A stretch of DNA of 64,000 nucleotides, from positions 1 through 64,000 of the IMG/VR virus record IMGVR_UViG_3300028844_003294. One strand, 5' to 3'. Shown here piece after piece: positions 50,497-58,157 of this stretch. The position numbers were made by a program, and so were the translations under genes. Under the pieces are notes generated by a model that was not told where the DNA came from, did no database searches, and was given only the letters and a program-made list of their open reading frames with translations. Origin of the DNA: a virus. The number at the start of each line of letters is the position of its first letter. Positions within the stretch are counted from its first letter, which is position 1.

Positions 50497-51513
50497 ATGG
50501 CAAACCTTTTTGAAAGGGCCGCATGTTTTACAGATATACATTACGGCTTAAAACAAAATAGTAGACAACATTTAAAAGATTGTCATGACTTTGTTGATTG
50601 GTTTATTGCAGAAGCAAAAGCCAGAGACGCAGAGACATGTATCTTTTTGGGCGACTGGCACCACCATAGAGCAAGTATAAACATTGCTACAATGAATGCC
50701 ACAATTAAAGACCTTAAAAAATTAAATGACAATTTTGAAAAAGTCTATTTTATTACTGGCAACCATGATTTATATTACAGAGAAAAACGTGACTTAAACA
50801 GTATTGAGTTTGCTAGAGATTTACCAAACTTTATAATGATCGACGAGCATTTCTGTGAGGACGGTGTTGCAATTATACCATGGTTAGTTGGCGATGAGCA
50901 CAAACAACTAAACAAACTAGATTGCAAATACATGTTTGGACATTTCGAGTTACCGTACTTTAAAATGAATGCAATGGTAGAAATGCCAGATCATGGTGGT
51001 ATTACTGCAAACGATTTAAGTAACCCCGAATATGTGTTTAGTGGTCACTTTCATAAACGTCAATACAAAAACAATATACATTATATAGGCAATGCTTTCC
51101 CACATAACTATGCAGATGCTGGTGACAATGAACGTGGTGCTATGTTTTTAGATTGGGGTGGCGAACCTGTATATGTAAATTGGCAAGAATGTCCAAAGTA
51201 TGTCATGACAGGTCTTAAAGAGTTACTTGATAAAGCAGATGATATACTTGATGCTCAAACACATGCTAGAGTAAAACTTGATATTGGTATTAGTTACGAA
51301 GAAGCAAACTTTATTAGAGAAACATTTGCAGAAAAATACGGAGTAAGAGAACTACAACTTTTACCTGTTAAGGAAGAAGAAGAAATTTTTGACGGTGTTG
51401 ATATACAGTTTGAAAGTGTAGATCAAATTGTTATACAACAATTAGAAACAATCGAAAGCAACTTAGTTGATACCCAAAAACTTATTACTATTTACAGAGA
51501 GTTAGAAGTATAA
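50497..51513 (+). CDS. Recombination nuclease subunit (gp47/Mre11/SbcD-like)
   Basis: Metallophosphoesterase motifs DIH, GD, GNHD, GHFE, SGHFH. Confidence 0.93.
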   Translation: MANLFERAACFTDIHYGLKQNSRQHLKDCHDFVDWFIAEAKARDAETCIFLGDWHHHRASINIATMNATIKDLKKLNDNFEKVYFITGNHDLYYREKRDLNSIEFARDLPNFIMIDEHFCEDGVAIIPWLVGDEHKQLNKLDCKYMFGHFELPYFKMNAMVEMPDHGGITANDLSNPEYVFSGHFHKRQYKNNIHYIGNAFPHNYADAGDNERGAMFLDWGGEPVYVNWQECPKYVMTGLKELLDKADDILDAQTHARVKLDIGISYEEANFIRETFAEKYGVRELQLLPVKEEEEIFDGVDIQFESVDQIVIQQLETIESNLVDTQKLITIYRELEV

Positions 51514-53285
51514 TGCTTACTATAAAAAATGTGAGTGCAAAGAACTTTATGAGTATTGGTAACAATACTCAAGCAGTAAACTTTGACACAGAATCACTAA
51601 CATTGGTTTTAGGTCACAATCTAGATCTAGGTGGAGACGGTAGCAGAAATGGTACTGGTAAAACCACTATTATCAATGCACTCAGTTATGCATTATATGG
51701 TGATGCACTAACAAACATTCGTAAAGATAATCTCATAAACAAAACAAACGGCAAAGGCATGATTGTTACTGTTGATTTTGAAATCAACGGCACCGAGTAC
51801 AGAATTGAAAGAGGTCGTAGGCCAAATGTATTAAAGTTTTTTGTGAATGGGTCTGAGGCGGCCGATGATGAACAACAGGGTGATAGCAGAGAAACACAAA
51901 AAGACATTGAAAAAATAATTGGTTTCCCTCATAATATGTTTAAGCATTTAATTGCACTAAACACATATACCGAACCTTTCCTCAGCATGAAAACAAATGA
52001 TCAACGTGATATGATTGAGCAGTTGCTAGGAATTACTGAAATTAGTTCAAAAGCAGAAATACTAAAAGAAAAATTAAAGGAAACTCGAGATAGAATTAAA
52101 GAAGAAGAGTTGCGAATACAAGCAGTAAACAATGCCAACGAACGTATTGAAAAAAATATAAAGGACATTGAATTACGTGGTAGAGCATGGGCTAAGAACA
52201 AAGAAGACAAGGTTCAACAATTACAAACTAGTCTAGATGCATTACAACAAACTGATATCGATGCAGAATTAGAAAACCATAGACAAGCAACAGAAATAAA
52301 TCAAAAATATACACAAATACAGAGTGTACAAAATGAGGTTAAACAACTTACAACTAGTTTAAAACGCAATGAAGGTAACCTTGCAACACTTGTTAAAAAT
52401 ATTAAACTTGCTAAAGAAGGTATATGTCCTGCGTGTGAACAAAGTACAGCACATTTAGATACGCACGAAGAATACACAACGGATTTAGAAACTAAACTAG
52501 CAGAAGAAAACTCTTACAGCAAAGAGCTACAAACTAAATTATCAACATGTGAAAAGCAATTGATTGACTTAGGCGAGTTACCAGAAACACCAATTACATT
52601 TTATAACAACATGGAAGATGCATTACAACACATGCATAACGTTGAGACAATAAAATCTCAAATAGATGAAAAAATTAAAGAACAAAACCCATACACTGAA
52701 CAAGTTGAACAACTAAAAGAAAATGGTATGGAAGAAATTAGTTACGACTTAATAAACGAACAAACTTATTTAAAAGAACACCAAGAATTTTTACACAAAT
52801 TGTTGACCAGTAAAGATAGTTTTATTCGTAAGAAAATTATTGATCAGAACTTGCAGTATCTAAACTATAGGCTAGGACACTATTTAGACAAACTAGGCTT
52901 ACCACATGATGTTAAGTTTAGCAGTGATCTGAGTGTAGAAATTACAGAGTATGGCAGAGATTTAGACTTTGATAATTTAAGCAGAGGTGAACGTAACAGA
53001 CTTATATTAGGTATGAGTTGGGCGTTCAGAGATATCTACGAAAGCCTAAATAGACCAATGAATTTGATGTGTATAGATGAACTGGTAGACAGTGGCATGG
53101 ATACCACTGGTGTTGAAAATGCATTGGCAGTTCTTAAGAAGATGGGTCGAGAAGCAAATAAGAACGTCTTCCTTATATCACATAAGGAAGAACTGCAAGG
53201 TCGTGTAAATAACGTCTTGTATGTAATCAAAGAAGGAGGATTCACTAGTTATAGCAATGACATTGAAATCCTCGAAGAGACTTAA
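51513..53285 (+). CDS. Recombination ATPase subunit (gp46/Rad50/SbcC-like)
   Basis: Walker A NGTGKT, coiled coil with CPAC zinc hook, LSRGE signature, IDE Walker B, ISH. Confidence 0.95.
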   Translation: MLTIKNVSAKNFMSIGNNTQAVNFDTESLTLVLGHNLDLGGDGSRNGTGKTTIINALSYALYGDALTNIRKDNLINKTNGKGMIVTVDFEINGTEYRIERGRRPNVLKFFVNGSEAADDEQQGDSRETQKDIEKIIGFPHNMFKHLIALNTYTEPFLSMKTNDQRDMIEQLLGITEISSKAEILKEKLKETRDRIKEEELRIQAVNNANERIEKNIKDIELRGRAWAKNKEDKVQQLQTSLDALQQTDIDAELENHRQATEINQKYTQIQSVQNEVKQLTTSLKRNEGNLATLVKNIKLAKEGICPACEQSTAHLDTHEEYTTDLETKLAEENSYSKELQTKLSTCEKQLIDLGELPETPITFYNNMEDALQHMHNVETIKSQIDEKIKEQNPYTEQVEQLKENGMEEISYDLINEQTYLKEHQEFLHKLLTSKDSFIRKKIIDQNLQYLNYRLGHYLDKLGLPHDVKFSSDLSVEITEYGRDLDFDNLSRGERNRLILGMSWAFRDIYESLNRPMNLMCIDELVDSGMDTTGVENALAVLKKMGREANKNVFLISHKEELQGRVNNVLYVIKEGGFTSYSNDIEILEET

Positions 53286-53710
53286 TGAGTGCATGGTACT
53301 ATAAAGGACAAGTAGTAGACGAATTACCCGAAGGTTGTGAAGCCATTGTTTATCTTATAACCAATAATACAAATGGTAAGAAATATGTTGGTAAAAAATT
53401 AGCAAAGTTCAAAACAACTAAACCTCCCTTAAAAGGAAAAAAGAATAAACGTAGAGGCACTAAAGAAAGTGACTGGCGTACTTATTGGGGTAGTTCTGAT
53501 AATTTAAAAGAAGACGTAGAAAAATTAGGTGAAGATAAATTTACCCGTGAAATACTTTACTATTGTCCTAGTAGAGGAGTTGCTAGTTACATAGAGGCAA
53601 GAGAACAGTTCGAAAGAAAGGTTTTAGAATCAGACGATTATTACAATGGAATTATCAATGTTCGAATAGGCGGTTCAAAAATTTTGCGAGAATCTCTTAA
53701 AGAGTTATAA
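53285..53710 (+). CDS. Short GIY-YIG family nuclease (Seg-like)
   Basis: IVYLITN..NGKKYVG, YWGSS, F.REIL, E and YYN motifs; catalytic domain only, 141 aa. Confidence 0.8.
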   Translation: MSAWYYKGQVVDELPEGCEAIVYLITNNTNGKKYVGKKLAKFKTTKPPLKGKKNKRRGTKESDWRTYWGSSDNLKEDVEKLGEDKFTREILYYCPSRGVASYIEAREQFERKVLESDDYYNGIINVRIGGSKILRESLKEL

Positions 53711-54120
53711 GTATCAGTCAAGGCACATTACAGACACCCAGTCAGACTAACATAGGCACACACATAGGTCCATACACCACCCCATCGAGGCACATAATAT
53801 CGATTTCCTTGACAATCCGTTAAACACGGTGCGAGATTCTGGAATGTATGGCGTAAATGAGATACATACACACGACAACAGTATTAGATGATGCAGGCAA
53901 TGAAAAACAGCAACCTGCAAATTTGTATAACTGAACTCTACAAGGTTATACAGGTTTCCGTAAGTGCGAAAGCAGTGACGGTAGTGTAGGGGAGATAAGG
54001 CTTACCACTTCCCGTTTAAACACCCGAGTTAGAGATGGCGATGCTCATCATGATGACATCATTTTATTCACCCGGCAACGGGTGAATTATGGCTTAACTT
54101 TCATGATAACCTTTAATAAT
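53711..54120 (+). ncRNA. Putative large structured non-coding RNA (family unknown)
   Basis: No ORF in the track. About 44% GC by hand count over 53761-54060. At least 7 stems, including GAAA and GCAA tetraloops that read as GNRA on the plus strand. Boundaries approximate. Confidence 0.6.
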
Positions 54121-54193
54121 AAAAATTCTTCTAACAAAAACTGATATGAACGAAGTGAATGAAGTTTGCAGTTGGAAAGATACGAAGTATCTA

Positions 54194-54712
54194 TTAGAAA
54201 GACTGTAAATAAGTTATAGTGTCAGAATAACTTTTTCTTAAGTTTAAACTGAATAATTTAGTTAGTTCATTTATATTACTATGATCACAACCATGTTTTT
54301 TAGTAACATCTAAAATCATTATTTGTTGAGGGTTTATATATTTGTTATGTGAGGGATCTTCATGAGTTATGTATACAGGAAAATCATTTAGATTAAACAA
54401 CACATTACATTTTCTAGTAAATGGGTTTCTCCAACCTGTTAAAAAATCTTCATGAAGTTGTACTATTTGATTAGGATTTACATTTTCAAATCCTGCACTA
54501 TGTTCGGGTAATACTTCTATAGGACTTACTGCAAGTTTTATTTTATCTGCACAATTTAAATCTTTAACCATTAAAATATCTTGCGTCATGTCAGGCGTGT
54601 CTGCTCTATGCATAAAATACTTTTTATCATCTGGTATAGTAGTAGATATTTCTTCTTCTAAAGACAATAACAAATCTACATCATAATCAAAATTTAATAC
54701 AGTACTAAACAT
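54194..54712 (-). CDS. 2OG-Fe(II) oxygenase/cupin-like protein
   Basis: HED (HxD) plus distal KHG; paralogue of the next gene. Confidence 0.55.
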   Translation of the reverse strand: MFSTVLNFDYDVDLLLSLEEEISTTIPDDKKYFMHRADTPDMTQDILMVKDLNCADKIKLAVSPIEVLPEHSAGFENVNPNQIVQLHEDFLTGWRNPFTRKCNVLFNLNDFPVYITHEDPSHNKYINPQQIMILDVTKKHGCDHSNINELTKLFSLNLRKSYSDTITYLQSF

Positions 54713-57915: not shown

Positions 57916-58157
57916 CCCATCCAATCACCGCTTTTATCACCACTCTTGGCTTTGTTATATTTGTTAAGGGTGGTTATAAGAGTATCTCGTTCAACAGGAC
58001 TGAGGTGCCATGCTTCTGAATAAGACACGGCGCCTTCACTGTATATAGCCAGCTCTGCTACTGTTTTGATAATCTTCTTCTGTTCTGCGTCGAGTTGACC
58101 TAAGTAGCCTGTAATTGCCTCAGGCTCTGCTGTGCCTAGGAACCCGTGAAAAAATTT
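57912..58157 (-). CDS. Start-less ORF, probable -1 frameshift extension of the gp26-like chaperone
   Basis: Not in the track. KFFHGFLGTAEPEAITGYLGQLDAEQKKIIKTVAELAIYSEGAVSYSEAWHLSPVERDTLITTLNKYNKAKSGDKSGDWMG*, in the -1 frame of 58136..59002. Confidence 0.65.
   Translation of the reverse strand, partial: KFFHGFLGTAEPEAITGYLGQLDAEQKKIIKTVAELAIYSEGAVSYSEAWHLSPVERDTLITTLNKYNKAKSGDKSGDWMG

What the first reader, a model, noticed from the sequence alone, without database searches (positions are those of the whole stretch)
53285..54192. Large structured non-coding element directly behind a minimal GIY-YIG nuclease: candidate nuclease-RNA system
Seen: this is the only long gap (~480 nt) in a tightly packed window. 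It is about 44% GC by hand count, whereas the other gaps are very AT-rich. Stems: GTCAAGG 53717-23 with CCTTGAC 53807-13; ATCGA 53784-88 with TCGAT 53800-04; CCGT-taaac-ACGG 53817-29; ATGTAT 53844-49 with ATACAT 53862-67; TGCAGG 53892-97 with CCTGCA 53914-19; TGTATAAC 53924-31 with GTTATACA 53945-52; CCGT..TGC-GAAA-GCA..ACGG 53958-81; ATTCACCCG-GCAA-CGGGTGAAT 54066-87. The loop CTCTA 53936-40 could pseudoknot with TAGAG 54030-34. No terminator is visible after the GIY-YIG stop, so it is probably co-transcribed. Known: GNRA loops are typical of large tertiary-folded RNAs, and GIY-YIG homing nucleases normally carry extra DNA-binding modules, which this 141-aa protein lacks. Inference: an undescribed phage ncRNA that may be a ribozyme-like RNA, a scaffold or specificity partner for the nuclease and gp46/47, or a replication primer RNA. 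I do not recognise it as tRNA, tmRNA, RNase P or a complete intron.
Basis: partly seen in the sequence, partly recalled or inferred. Interest (0 to 1): 0.85.

Follow-up and report, generated by a model that had tools for sequence, protein, structure and literature searches.

The report
Twin-box knotted RNA beside phage nuclease
The gene-free stretch behind a small nuclease gene of this uncultured marine phage encodes a real, roughly 450-base, knotted non-coding RNA that matches no catalogued family; it carries two short words that differ between phages yet always match each other, and its job is unknown.

Summary
Window 53711-54193 is the longest ORF-free stretch in the window. It encodes a plus-strand structured RNA of about 430-480 nt.

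- Structure: on 22 copies, 97% of cells pair and 37 of 70 pairs carry compensatory changes, against 15.5±2 in shuffles.
- Catalogue: no Rfam family matches the window or its relatives.
- Spread: iterated nhmmer hit 105 of 196 fetched loci, and a distant copy sits in a Sphingomonadaceae MAG.
- Expression: metatranscriptome contigs from four studies lie on the element.
- Twin boxes: two direct-repeat boxes flank hairpin 54066-87 and change between phages, yet stay identical to each other. No complementary partner lies nearby.
- Link to the nuclease: it is tight but not obligate. Of 55 informative copies, 48 have the GIY-YIG gene within 200 nt upstream and 3 have it further upstream. Four lack it, and two of those carry a PD-(D/E)XK nuclease gene instead.

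I read it as an autonomous RNA gene with a Seg-type nuclease gene settled beside it, as segB sits among T4's stable-RNA genes. Function is unknown. Earlier agents of this scan found the same family on other genomes.

The parts
50497..51513 (+). gp47/SbcD-like phosphoesterase gene (context; first gene of the co-oriented block)
   Evidence: ORF. Pfam Metallophos, E 2.1e-5.
51513..53285 (+). gp46/SbcC-like recombination nuclease ATPase gene (context). It is complete, so the element is not an intron inside it.
   Evidence: ORF. Pfam AAA_23. 52% identical over residues 1-581 of 590 to the Pseudomonas phage PA5oct homologue.
53285..53710 (+). 141-aa stand-alone GIY-YIG nuclease-domain protein (SegE_GIY-YIG, phrog_447) without a DNA-binding extension
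   Evidence: PF19835, E 3.4e-33, covering profile positions 1-123 of 123. phrog_447, E 2.2e-36. Aligns only to the N-terminal 88 residues of the 221-aa T4 SegB. Hallmark residues are at least 98% conserved in 111 distinct homologues.
53711..54193 (+). Twin-box RNA gene, full extent. The 3' end is set by the terminal hairpin. The 5' end is not mapped; the conserved core starts near 53757.
   Evidence: Homologues. Covariation. Many G-U pairs on the plus strand. RNA-library contigs.
53720..53794 (+). C/A-rich 5' region with three AGGCACA words (53721-27, 53754-60, 53788-94). Word number and spacing vary between copies.
   Evidence: Read. One to four AAGGCACA-like words appear in the 5' part of the alignments. 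No consensus structure was predicted there.
53770..53851 (+). 5' domain. Long-range helix 53770-76/53845-51 encloses hairpins 53785-88/53800-03, 53808-11/53832-35 and 53817-20/53826-29.
   Evidence: helices 2-5, are 94-100% paired. Helices 3 and 5 have double changes in all 4 pairs each. Coordinates.
53861..53885 (+). Hairpin 53861-65/53881-85
   Evidence: helix 6: 100% paired, 2 of 5 pairs with double changes.
53893..53918 (+). Hairpin 53893-97/53914-18 with the most conserved loop of the family (the GAGAAAAAGCAAC-type word used to fish relatives)
   Evidence: helix 7: 100% paired, 4 of 5 pairs with double changes. The top mutual-information pairs lie here. Pattern scan.
53919..53957 (+). Long hairpin 53919-32/53944-57; its loop 53936-40 makes the pseudoknot
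   Evidence: helix 9: 11 of 13 pairs with double changes.
53936..54034 (+). Pseudoknot: loop 53936-40 pairs with 54030-34
   Evidence: helix 10: 97.3% paired, 4 of 5 pairs with double changes. Also recovered on 66 copies.
53958..54025 (+). Hairpin 53958-61/53978-81, then nested helices 53984-87/54020-23 and 53989-94/54008-13. GTGA 53975-78 can also pair with TCAC 54068-71.
   Evidence: helices 11-13. The alternative pairing: 53976 is complementary to 54070 in 94% of copies and identical to 54083 in 95%.
54035..54057 (+). Twin box A (5' word ATGGC 54035-39; 3' word TCATGAT 54048-54)
54066..54087 (+). Hairpin with a GCAA loop between the twin boxes
   Evidence: Strongest helix on 66 copies: 8 pairs, 6 of them covarying. 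helix 14.
54089..54111 (+). Twin box B (5' word ATGGC 54089-93; 3' word TCATGAT 54101-07)
54128..54192 (+). 3' domain: helix 54128-35/54171-77 and terminal hairpin 54178-83/54187-92
   Evidence: Helix 3 is 97.8% paired with 7 of 8 pairs double-changed. Helix 4 is 98.9% paired with 4 of 6. Coordinates.
54194..54712 (-). Convergent 172-aa ORF whose stop codon abuts the RNA's terminal hairpin (context; this neighbour differs between relatives)
   Evidence: Only a weak DUF7209 hit and no PHROG.

Best explanation
The gap is a gene for a stable, multi-domain, pseudoknotted non-coding RNA of about 430-480 nt. Earlier notes of this scan call the family the 'twin-box' RNA. It is made from the plus strand as the last unit of the gp47-gp46-GIY-YIG block and ends at a conserved terminal hairpin.

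I read it as a gene in its own right that acts in trans during infection. The folded core presents two single-stranded, near-identical boxes on either side of a hairpin. These would be two docking sites for one sequence-specific partner, protein or RNA, whose specificity drifts with the phage lineage.

On this reading the small GIY-YIG gene is not its guide-dependent enzyme. It is a Seg-type free-standing nuclease gene that has settled next to a slowly evolving RNA gene, as segB sits among the tRNA and stable-RNA genes of T4.

Shown: the conserved RNA structure, the strand, presence in RNA libraries, concerted change of the boxes, and a tight but breakable linkage to the nuclease gene. Inferred: action in trans, the docking role of the boxes, and the homing-type relation of the nuclease to the RNA gene. 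What the RNA does for the phage is not known.
For: Conservation. 22 of 80 loci fetched with the GIY-YIG protein match the element over 133-500 nt at 69-86% identity. Iterated nhmmer hits 105 of 196 loci. 66 non-identical copies cover the core.

Structure.
- RNAalifold on 22 copies gives 65 pairs, 33 of them with compensatory changes.
- Counting 70 pairs: 97.0% paired, 37 pairs with double changes against 15.5±2.0 in shuffles (0 of 500 reach it) and 7-13 in slid controls.
- On 29 full-length copies, 38 of 58 pairs have double changes.
- The 3' helix and the terminal hairpin are 98-99% paired.

Strand. Several pairs are mostly G-U on the plus strand, for example GU in 22 of 22 copies at columns 257/275.

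Not coding. No conserved ORF, and 1-2-nt indels between copies.

RNA libraries. Contigs from four metatranscriptome runs of four studies lie on the element. One 303-nt contig covers 53853-54154 with 2 differences. One 257-nt contig bridges the GIY-YIG stop.

Twin boxes.
- In 48 distinct A/B pairs the longest shared word averages 7.1 nt against 4.66±0.16 when B is shuffled among copies (0 of 2000 reach it). There are 23 different words.
- The distant Sphingomonadaceae copy carries its own matching pair.
- No complementary word occurs in the RNA or within 3-4 kb of it.

Autonomy.
- Among 60 distinct copies found through an RNA word alone, 48 have the GIY-YIG gene within 200 nt upstream. Three have it 591-1517 nt upstream with other genes between. 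Four have none. Five have too little flank to tell.
- Two of the four without it carry a PF24608 PD-(D/E)XK nuclease gene in that place.
- The MAG copy lies about 1 kb from an integrase gene, with no GIY-YIG.

Precedent.
- T4 has segB followed by tRNA-Arg, rnaD and rnaC.
- SegB homologues are enriched near tRNA genes, and T6 SegB cuts inside them and drives their amplification (PMC13096335; abstract and sections 9 and 10 read).
Against: - No function is demonstrated, and no partner for the boxes has been found. The docking idea is an inference from concerted change alone.
- The nuclease gene is far more faithful to the RNA than homing endonuclease genes usually are to a site. It is present in 51 of 55 informative copies, across nuclease divergence down to about 50% identity. 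That would also fit a functional partnership.
- The protein lacks any DNA-binding extension, so how it would find a DNA target alone is unexplained.
- The contigs come from RNA libraries that may hold DNA, and contigs show neither strand nor ends.
- I did not run R-scape or build a covariance model.
Confidence: 0.45

Rival explanations
1. Nuclease-RNA system. The RNA is the specificity or scaffold partner of the GIY-YIG protein, which has no DNA-binding domain. The twin boxes would dock two nuclease monomers or guide them to a target.
For: The nuclease gene lies within 200 nt upstream in 48 of 55 informative copies and within 1.6 kb in 3 more. The protein is a bare catalytic domain with conserved active-site residues. 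Box words that change with lineage are what a co-evolving protein-RNA or guide-target pair would give.
Against: The RNA occurs without the gene in 4 of 55 copies and in a bacterial MAG element. In two of those an unrelated PD-(D/E)XK nuclease gene holds the place. An opposite-strand 2OG-Fe(II) oxygenase gene, or one to two plus-strand genes, can separate the pair. The same protein family at 71% identity in Melnitz, and its cyanophage homologues, have no such RNA behind them. No complement of the box word lies nearby.
Confidence: 0.13
2. Replication-origin element. The transcript would act as a structured pre-primer or R-loop RNA, in the manner of ColE1 RNA II or the T4 origin transcripts. The twin boxes would be iteron-like DNA sites for an initiator whose specificity co-evolves.
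For: The element sits at the end of the recombination and replication gene block. Directly repeated words that change in concert between lineages are how iterons behave (the comparison itself is recalled). Earlier notes of this scan raised the same idea.
Against: There are only two boxes, with fixed differences between A and B kept across the family. The whole 450 nt shows RNA-type covariation, including a pseudoknot, which a DNA site would not need. I saw no AT-rich unwinding region or initiator gene. GC skew shows no switch in 50-58 kb.
Confidence: 0.12
3. Cis-acting 3' end of the operon. It would be a long structured 3' UTR, transcription stop or insulator at a convergent gene junction that protects the gp47-gp46-GIY-YIG mRNA, with no role as a separate RNA.
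For: The element lies at a convergent junction in the window and in many relatives. It ends in a very stable hairpin. No separate promoter was predicted. One contig bridges from the nuclease gene into it.
Against: A 3' protective element needs a hairpin, not about 16 conserved helices, a pseudoknot and twin boxes. In several relatives the next gene is co-oriented (L006, L001, L030, L025), and in others extra genes precede the element. So the junction context is not conserved while the RNA is.
Confidence: 0.08
4. Translation-linked device. The hairpin 54066-87 would hide a Shine-Dalgarno-like purine run placed 4 nt before the ATG of box B. The boxes would be 'sense codon plus two stop codons'. 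The RNA would then carry a mini-ORF, or act as a ribosome trap or bypass signal.
For: The 3' strand of the hairpin is GGTGA/GGAGA-like and sits just before ATG, GTG or TTG in the two main subfamilies. Box B reads as a 6-codon ORF ending in TGA TAA in many copies. The boxes lie 46-72 nt apart, mostly 50-59 (reading). The likeness to the 50-nt T4 gene 60 bypass is recalled from memory.
Against: By my reading of the listing, a 1-nt indel breaks the frame of the box B mini-ORF in about 9 of 29 near copies. In the window itself the ORF stops after two codons. Box A has no in-frame start. The third subfamily has no ATG in the 5' word. Identity extends well beyond one codon.
Confidence: 0.05

Closest known systems
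T4 segB with its neighbouring tRNA genes and the stable RNAs rnaC and rnaD; SegB-tRNA association in phages generally (PMC13096335; PMC2330249 seen as a search listing only)
   Same: A free-standing GIY-YIG nuclease gene lies directly upstream of, and co-oriented with, stable-RNA genes; two of the T4 RNAs have no function annotated in the record. Our protein aligns to the SegB catalytic domain at 27% identity, E 2e-4. SegB homologues are statistically enriched near RNA genes.
   Different: The neighbour here is one large 450-nt knotted RNA, not tRNAs. ARAGORN found no tRNA in the window and none inside the element in 58 loci. The protein is 141 aa and lacks SegB's roughly 130-aa C-terminal region. 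Cleavage, homing and amplification are untested here.
GOLLD, ROOL and OLE: large 'ornate' RNAs, of which GOLLD and ROOL are often carried by phages and prophages (PMC12286853, search listing and start of the abstract only; the phage and prophage association is partly recalled)
   Same: A large, intricately folded RNA with no known biochemical job, carried by phages, with a distant copy in an integrase-linked bacterial element.
   Different: No match to any Rfam model, these included, in the window or in relatives. It is smaller. No adjacent tRNA genes. Twin boxes are not a described feature of those RNAs, to my knowledge. Oligomeric assembly is untested.
'Twin-box knotted RNA' in earlier, unpublished AI notes of this scan (for example e1-5796360, e1-5973060)
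   Same: Same family by shared words and by every feature I derived before reading the notes: about 450 nt, pseudoknotted, behind a small GIY-YIG gene next to gp46/47, with two boxes that change together, and also present in bacterial mobile elements.
   Different: These are notes, not publications. One says the RNA is never found without the nuclease gene, which my count contradicts. Several name the Polynucleobacter-1 motif as closest known, which I could not reproduce.
ColE1 RNA II and the T4 origin transcripts (recalled from memory; no call)
   Same: A structured transcript of a few hundred nucleotides next to replication functions.
   Different: No origin features, antisense partner or RNase H site were identified here. 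There is no sequence relation.

Membership tests
Any Rfam 15 family (GOLLD RF01998, ROOL RF03087, tmRNA, RNase P and group I intron models included) | Match to the family's covariance model | tested here: not met
   0 matches at gathering score in the 64-kb window, in 20 relatives and at the element in 16 genome loci. At E up to 10 on 53600-54300 there were only four chance-level snoRNA matches, E 2.6-8.7. 0 matches at E up to 1 in 9 diverse members.
Polynucleobacter-1 motif (RF01718), named as closest known in earlier notes of this scan | Match to the RF01718 covariance model | tested here: not met
   No match at E up to 10 in the window's own 72-kb record. None at E up to 1 in 9 diverse family members.
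tmRNA | tRNA-like domain (acceptor stem, T arm) plus a tag reading frame | tested here: not met
   ARAGORN finds no tmRNA in the window or in 58 relatives' loci. No Rfam tmRNA model matches.
Group I intron carrying a GIY-YIG homing endonuclease | Interrupts a host gene, with exons on both sides | tested here: not met
   gp46 is complete upstream, aligning over 1-581 of 590 residues to PA5oct. The next gene is on the opposite strand. No Intron_gpI match.
Seg-type free-standing GIY-YIG homing endonuclease (for the protein) | GIY-YIG catalytic domain with conserved catalytic residues | tested here: met
   PF19835, E 3.4e-33. Weaker matches to homing-endonuclease PHROGs. Hallmark Tyr, Arg, Glu and Asn positions are at least 98% conserved in 111 homologues.
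Seg-type free-standing GIY-YIG homing endonuclease (for the protein) | C-terminal DNA-binding region | tested here: not met
   The protein is 141 aa. Its alignment with the 221-aa T4 SegB covers only SegB residues 5-88. Its best PHROG profile is 148 positions long.
Seg-type free-standing GIY-YIG homing endonuclease (for the protein) | Sporadic presence among close relatives; site-specific cleavage of alleles that lack the gene | tested here: inconclusive
   The gene is present in 51 of 55 informative RNA loci, so it is not sporadic here. But it turns up in other genomic places in Melnitz and in cyanophages. Cleavage cannot be tested with these tools.
CRISPR mini-array or solitary-repeat mimic | Near-identical direct repeats flanking a variable spacer | tested here: not met
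   The dimensions fit: boxes of about 23 nt, 31 nt apart. But A and B keep fixed differences across the family, and the 'spacer' is a conserved covarying hairpin.
Large ornate phage and prophage RNAs (GOLLD/ROOL kind, by analogy and not by homology) | Homo-oligomeric RNA-only assembly | not testable with these tools
   No RNA 3D or complex prediction is available here. It would need cryo-EM or native gels.
Twin-box RNA family (this scan's own working name) | Two boxes around a hairpin that vary between copies but match within a copy, in a pseudoknotted core | tested here: met
   Window boxes at 54035-57 and 54089-111.

The most novel reading that the evidence does not exclude
The twin boxes are a programmable address. 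Two identical lineage-specific words on a rigid knotted scaffold would recruit two copies of the GIY-YIG domain, which has no DNA-binding region, or of another nuclease such as the PD-(D/E)XK protein that replaces it. They might instead pair with a matching nucleic-acid target. Either way this would be an RNA-specified homing or anti-defence nuclease system unrelated to CRISPR and OMEGA. A softer form: the RNA is a decoy that soaks up a sequence-specific host defence factor, and the neighbouring Seg-type nuclease keeps or amplifies the locus, as SegB does for tRNA genes.
Probability: 0.12. Interest if true: 0.95.

Novelty: new variant of a known kind. Interest (0 to 1): 0.72.

Why it matters
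Large, intricately folded RNAs with no known job are rare. Past examples such as OLE, GOLLD and ROOL have each opened new biology. This one is common in uncultured aquatic phages: more than 100 contigs in one capped scan. It is present in metatranscriptomes and reaches a bacterial mobile element, yet no isolate among 50,697 phage records carries it at blastn sensitivity.

Its two boxes evolve in concert without being complementary to anything nearby. That is an unusual evolutionary signature and points to a specific, still unseen partner. Its near-constant company of a bare GIY-YIG domain also extends the recently described SegB-tRNA association to a new kind of RNA gene. It raises a testable question: does such a minimal nuclease work with, on, or merely beside the RNA gene?

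Tried and rejected
Led nowhere or rejected:
1. Single-sequence folding. z = -1.51 on the plus strand and 0.05 on the minus strand, so it is not informative alone.
2. blastn ('distant' mode) of the element against 50,697 phage records gave no match. No cultured carrier is known.
3. Cis partner for the twin word. The reverse complement of the word is absent from the RNA. Within 3-4 kb it appears only at scattered, inconsistent places. The palindromic words are the exception, since they match themselves.
4. Coding reading. There is no conserved ORF. The mini-ORF at box B is broken by a 1-nt indel in about 9 of 29 near copies (my reading).
5. tRNA-like content. ARAGORN found none in the element in 58 loci. 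Five gp46-less loci have a tRNA-Thr 1.5-2.2 kb further on.
6. A second phage group (L002, L012, L022 and similar). The conserved stretch behind the nuclease gene there is a late-promoter-like word plus a small ORF, not this RNA.
7. Genome scan. Of 16 genome-contig hits to the 20-nt core word, 13 reached nhmmer E 1e-3. Two of these (L212, L209), and perhaps L215, are real copies. The rest match only about 25-55 nt and overlap no Rfam family.
8. Polynucleobacter-1 lead from earlier notes: not reproduced.
9. A pairwise column scan with loose criteria was useless noise. I replaced it with corrected mutual information.
10. Cover in RNA libraries. In runs X2 and X3 only the element and the 3' end of the nuclease gene are covered, and the flanks are not. 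The tool warns that holes in contig cover prove nothing, so I draw no expression ranking from this.
11. Not attempted: covariance model (the element exceeds the practical size limit), R-scape, protein structure or complex prediction, a metagenome-contig scan.
12. Literature. Searches found no description of this RNA. The 2023 catalogue of viral candidate structured RNAs (PMC10690425, passages read) lists motifs of 29-151 nt from IMG/VR. Single hairpins of this RNA may be among them.

Full report
What is there. The window comes from a 72-kb virus record estimated at 20% complete. Its gp46 homologue is closest to those of jumbo phages: Pseudomonas PA5oct at 52%, then Sinorhizobium Phosso and Agrobacterium Atu_ph07. 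A co-oriented block runs gp47-like (50497-51513), gp46-like (51513-53285) and a 141-aa GIY-YIG-only protein (53285-53710; PF19835, E 3.4e-33). Then comes 483 nt without an ORF, up to a convergent gene that ends at 54194. With ORFs of 75 aa or more masked, this is the longest open stretch of the window; the next is 220 nt. Its GC is 40.6%, or 43% in the core, against 34.6% overall. Rfam gives nothing at gathering score in the window and only chance-level snoRNA matches at E 2.6-8.7. ARAGORN gives nothing. The single-sequence fold is unremarkable (z -1.51 and 0.05).

Is it real? I fetched 80 loci through the nuclease protein; 597 confirmed relatives existed and the best 80 were kept. Of these, 22 match the element over 133-500 nt at 69-86% identity. 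The element is thus about as conserved as the neighbouring protein. Iterated nhmmer then hit 105 of 196 loci, and 66 non-identical copies cover the core. The alignments show indels of 1-2 nt and no shared ORF. RNAalifold on 22 copies predicts 65 pairs, 33 with compensatory changes. The result is 97.0% of 1520 cells paired and 37 of 70 pairs with changes on both sides. Shuffles give 15.5±2.0 (0 of 500 reach the observed value) and slid controls give 7-13. On 29 full-length copies, 38 of 58 pairs show double changes. The 3' helix 54128-35/54171-77 and the terminal hairpin 54178-83/54187-92 are 98-99% paired. Several pairs are predominantly G-U on the plus strand, so the folded strand is the plus strand, the same as the upstream genes.

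Six of eight stems hold. Four of them, and the pseudoknot, have double changes in most of their pairs. The hairpin 54066-87 is best supported on 66 copies. CCGT/ACGG 53958-81 is conserved but hardly varies. GTCAAGG/CCTTGAC is weak (80.5% paired) and overlaps a better helix. ATGTAT/ATACAT (82%) competes with the long-range helix 53770-76/53845-51. In three copies (L143, L098, L038) the middle strand and both possible partners changed together. The RNA may therefore switch between two pairings there. A second such triple exists: GTGA 53975-78 and the 3' strand of hairpin 54066-87 are both complementary to 54068-71 and change together.

Twin boxes. On either side of hairpin 54066-87 lie two direct repeats, A (54035-57) and B (54089-111). 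Each has a 5' word (ATGGC in the window) and a 3' word (TCATGAT). Both words differ between copies but agree within a copy. Over 48 distinct A/B pairs the longest common word in the 3' halves averages 7.1 nt (minimum 6). When B is shuffled among copies it averages 4.66±0.16, and 0 of 2000 shuffles reach the observed value. There are 23 different words. A and B also keep fixed differences throughout the family, so this is not simple homogenisation by gene conversion. The words are not complementary to each other. Their reverse complement occurs neither in the RNA nor at any consistent place within 3-4 kb. Seven of eleven nuclease-linked gaps that nhmmer had missed still show a 7-nt word repeated 49-60 nt apart. 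The four I printed in context show the same CTC.../TCT... flanks and a hairpin in between. So a third, more distant subfamily exists. I have no proven explanation. The reading I favour is two docking sites for one partner whose specificity drifts with the lineage. Alternative pairing with an unseen strand, or donor and acceptor sites for a template switch, are not excluded.

Is it transcribed? Twenty metatranscriptome runs of 13 studies hold 9-25% of the sampled words of 53285-54400. I laid four runs from four studies, all kept as contigs. A 303-nt contig covers 53853-54154 with 2 differences (X2). A 257-nt contig covers 53573-53829 with 1 difference and bridges the nuclease stop codon, and a 164-nt contig covers 53851-54014 (both X3). 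Small contigs lie on the nuclease gene, the element and the downstream gene (X4). A relative's 379-nt contig runs from 54025 into the downstream gene (X1). This shows presence in RNA libraries and fits read-through from the nuclease gene. Contigs give no strand, ends or level, and DNA carry-over cannot be ruled out. No sigma-70-like promoter or intrinsic terminator is predicted on the plus strand between the nuclease gene and the element.

Relation to the nuclease. I counted only copies found through the RNA word, which gives 60 distinct copies. The GIY-YIG gene lies within 200 nt upstream on the same strand in 48. It lies 591-1517 nt upstream with other genes between in 3. It is absent in 4, and the flank is too short in 5. 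In two of the four without it (L112, L189), a PF24608 PD-(D/E)XK nuclease gene sits between gp46 and the RNA. In the other two (L127, L130) the RNA lies between an unrelated 375-380-aa ORF and a T4-baseplate-family gene. In L006 and L001 an opposite-strand 2OG-Fe(II) oxygenase gene separates nuclease gene and RNA.

Among genome assemblies, a 23-kb MAG contig carries both nuclease gene and RNA (L212). A 587-kb Sphingomonadaceae MAG contig carries a distant but unmistakable copy. That copy has the core hairpin, the hairpin flanked by its own matching words, about 1 kb from an integrase gene and with no GIY-YIG. Conversely, 775 phage records encode homologues of the protein, which is often mis-annotated as 'NAD synthetase'. 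The closest isolate is the Methylophilales phage Melnitz at 71%. There the gene sits after the ribonucleotide reductase genes, with no such element. PA5oct has gp47-gp46 followed directly by opposite-strand genes, with neither nuclease gene nor RNA. The two genes are therefore tightly linked in this phage clade but separable. An obligate nuclease-RNA machine is not the best reading.

What the pairing resembles. In T4, segB (GIY-YIG) lies among tRNA genes and is followed by tRNA-Arg and the small stable RNAs rnaD and rnaC. A 2026 study shows three things about SegB. Its homologues are significantly enriched within 1 kb of tRNA genes. T6 SegB cuts inside tRNA genes. It also drives recombination-dependent amplification of the locus to escape defence (PMC13096335; abstract and sections 9 and 10 read). 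In three of the five cyanophage records I looked at, tRNA clusters lie 0.2-1.6 kb downstream of the homologue. Our protein aligns to the SegB catalytic domain only (27% identity, E 2e-4) and lacks its C-terminal half. Its catalytic hallmarks are at least 98% conserved in 111 homologues. The most economical picture is a Seg-type nuclease gene living beside a slowly evolving RNA gene. Two different nuclease families holding the same slot fits that picture. The unusual fidelity of the GIY-YIG gene to the RNA, and its lack of a DNA-binding part, keep the partnership reading alive at about one in eight.

Known or new. No Rfam 15 family matches the window, 20 plus 9 relatives, or the genome copies. 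The Polynucleobacter-1 lead from earlier notes failed here. Seven literature searches found no description. Pieces of this RNA may be listed there. After my own analysis I found that this scan has met the same family on several other genomes and reached much the same conclusions. I treat those as unpublished leads. I confirm the twin boxes and the bacterial copies. I contradict the note that the RNA never occurs without the nuclease gene. I could not reproduce the Rfam lead.

Verdict. This is a real, expressed-looking, uncatalogued large structured RNA family with an unexplained concerted-evolution signature. Function is unknown. My confidence that it is a genuine structured RNA gene is about 0.95. 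My confidence in the autonomous, partner-docking reading as a whole is about 0.45.

Noticed in passing
L112:3298-3867 (+) and L189:2272-2862 (-): In two loci whose RNA copy has no GIY-YIG gene, a 'phage putative PDDEXK endonuclease' (PF24608, E 3e-26 and 2.7e-25) lies between gp46 and the RNA. Two unrelated nuclease families thus hold the same slot beside the RNA gene.
   Followed up: partly
L209:1280-1566 (Sphingomonadaceae MAG, 587-kb contig): A distant, higher-GC copy of the RNA with its own matching twin words. It lies about 1 kb from a phage-integrase-family gene, among hypothetical ORFs, with no GIY-YIG gene. It looks like a prophage or integrative element.
   Followed up: partly
L016, L020, L042, L051, L054, L055, L063 (500-800-nt gaps behind the GIY-YIG gene): A third, more distant subfamily. 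It keeps a hairpin flanked by matching CTC.../TCT... words 49-60 nt apart but lacks the GAGAAAAAGCAAC-type hairpin, so nhmmer scores it weakly or misses it.
   Followed up: partly
window 53770-53776, 53845-53851, 53861-53867: TGTAT (53846-50) can pair with either of two ATACA words. In three relatives all three segments changed together (to TGCA). This suggests two alternative conformations of the 5' domain.
   Followed up: partly
window 57916-58135: The second-longest ORF-free stretch of the window (220 nt) is also GC-rich (45.5% against 34.6%). Another first-reader note reads it as a possible frameshift site. I did not examine it.
   Followed up: no
phage records MT408532.1, PV340853.1, PQ898602.1, KJ019152.1 and others: Homologues of this 141-aa GIY-YIG protein are annotated 'NAD synthetase' in many cyanophage and FelixO1-like records (phrog_447 carries that name). 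The Pfam match and the conserved residues say GIY-YIG nuclease, so the name looks like a propagated mis-annotation.
   Followed up: partly
L022, L023, L026, L027, L039, L041 (about 30-120 nt after the GIY-YIG stop): In a gp46-less group of marine contigs, the nuclease gene is followed by a conserved TTTGTCTAAATA word (late-promoter-like) and then a small conserved ORF that begins ATGGCT. This is not the RNA.
   Followed up: partly
L212 (23-kb contig of a MAG labelled Legionellales): The contig carries both the GIY-YIG gene (62% identity) and the RNA (nhmmer E 4e-36). It is probably a phage contig binned into a bacterial MAG.
   Followed up: no
L006:3424-3942 and L001:1402-1923 (minus strand): A 2OG-Fe(II) oxygenase-family gene (PF13640, tested on the L006 ORF) is inserted on the opposite strand between the nuclease gene and the RNA. 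L001 has a like-sized ORF in the same position. In these phages the RNA probably cannot be made by simple read-through from the nuclease gene.
   Followed up: no
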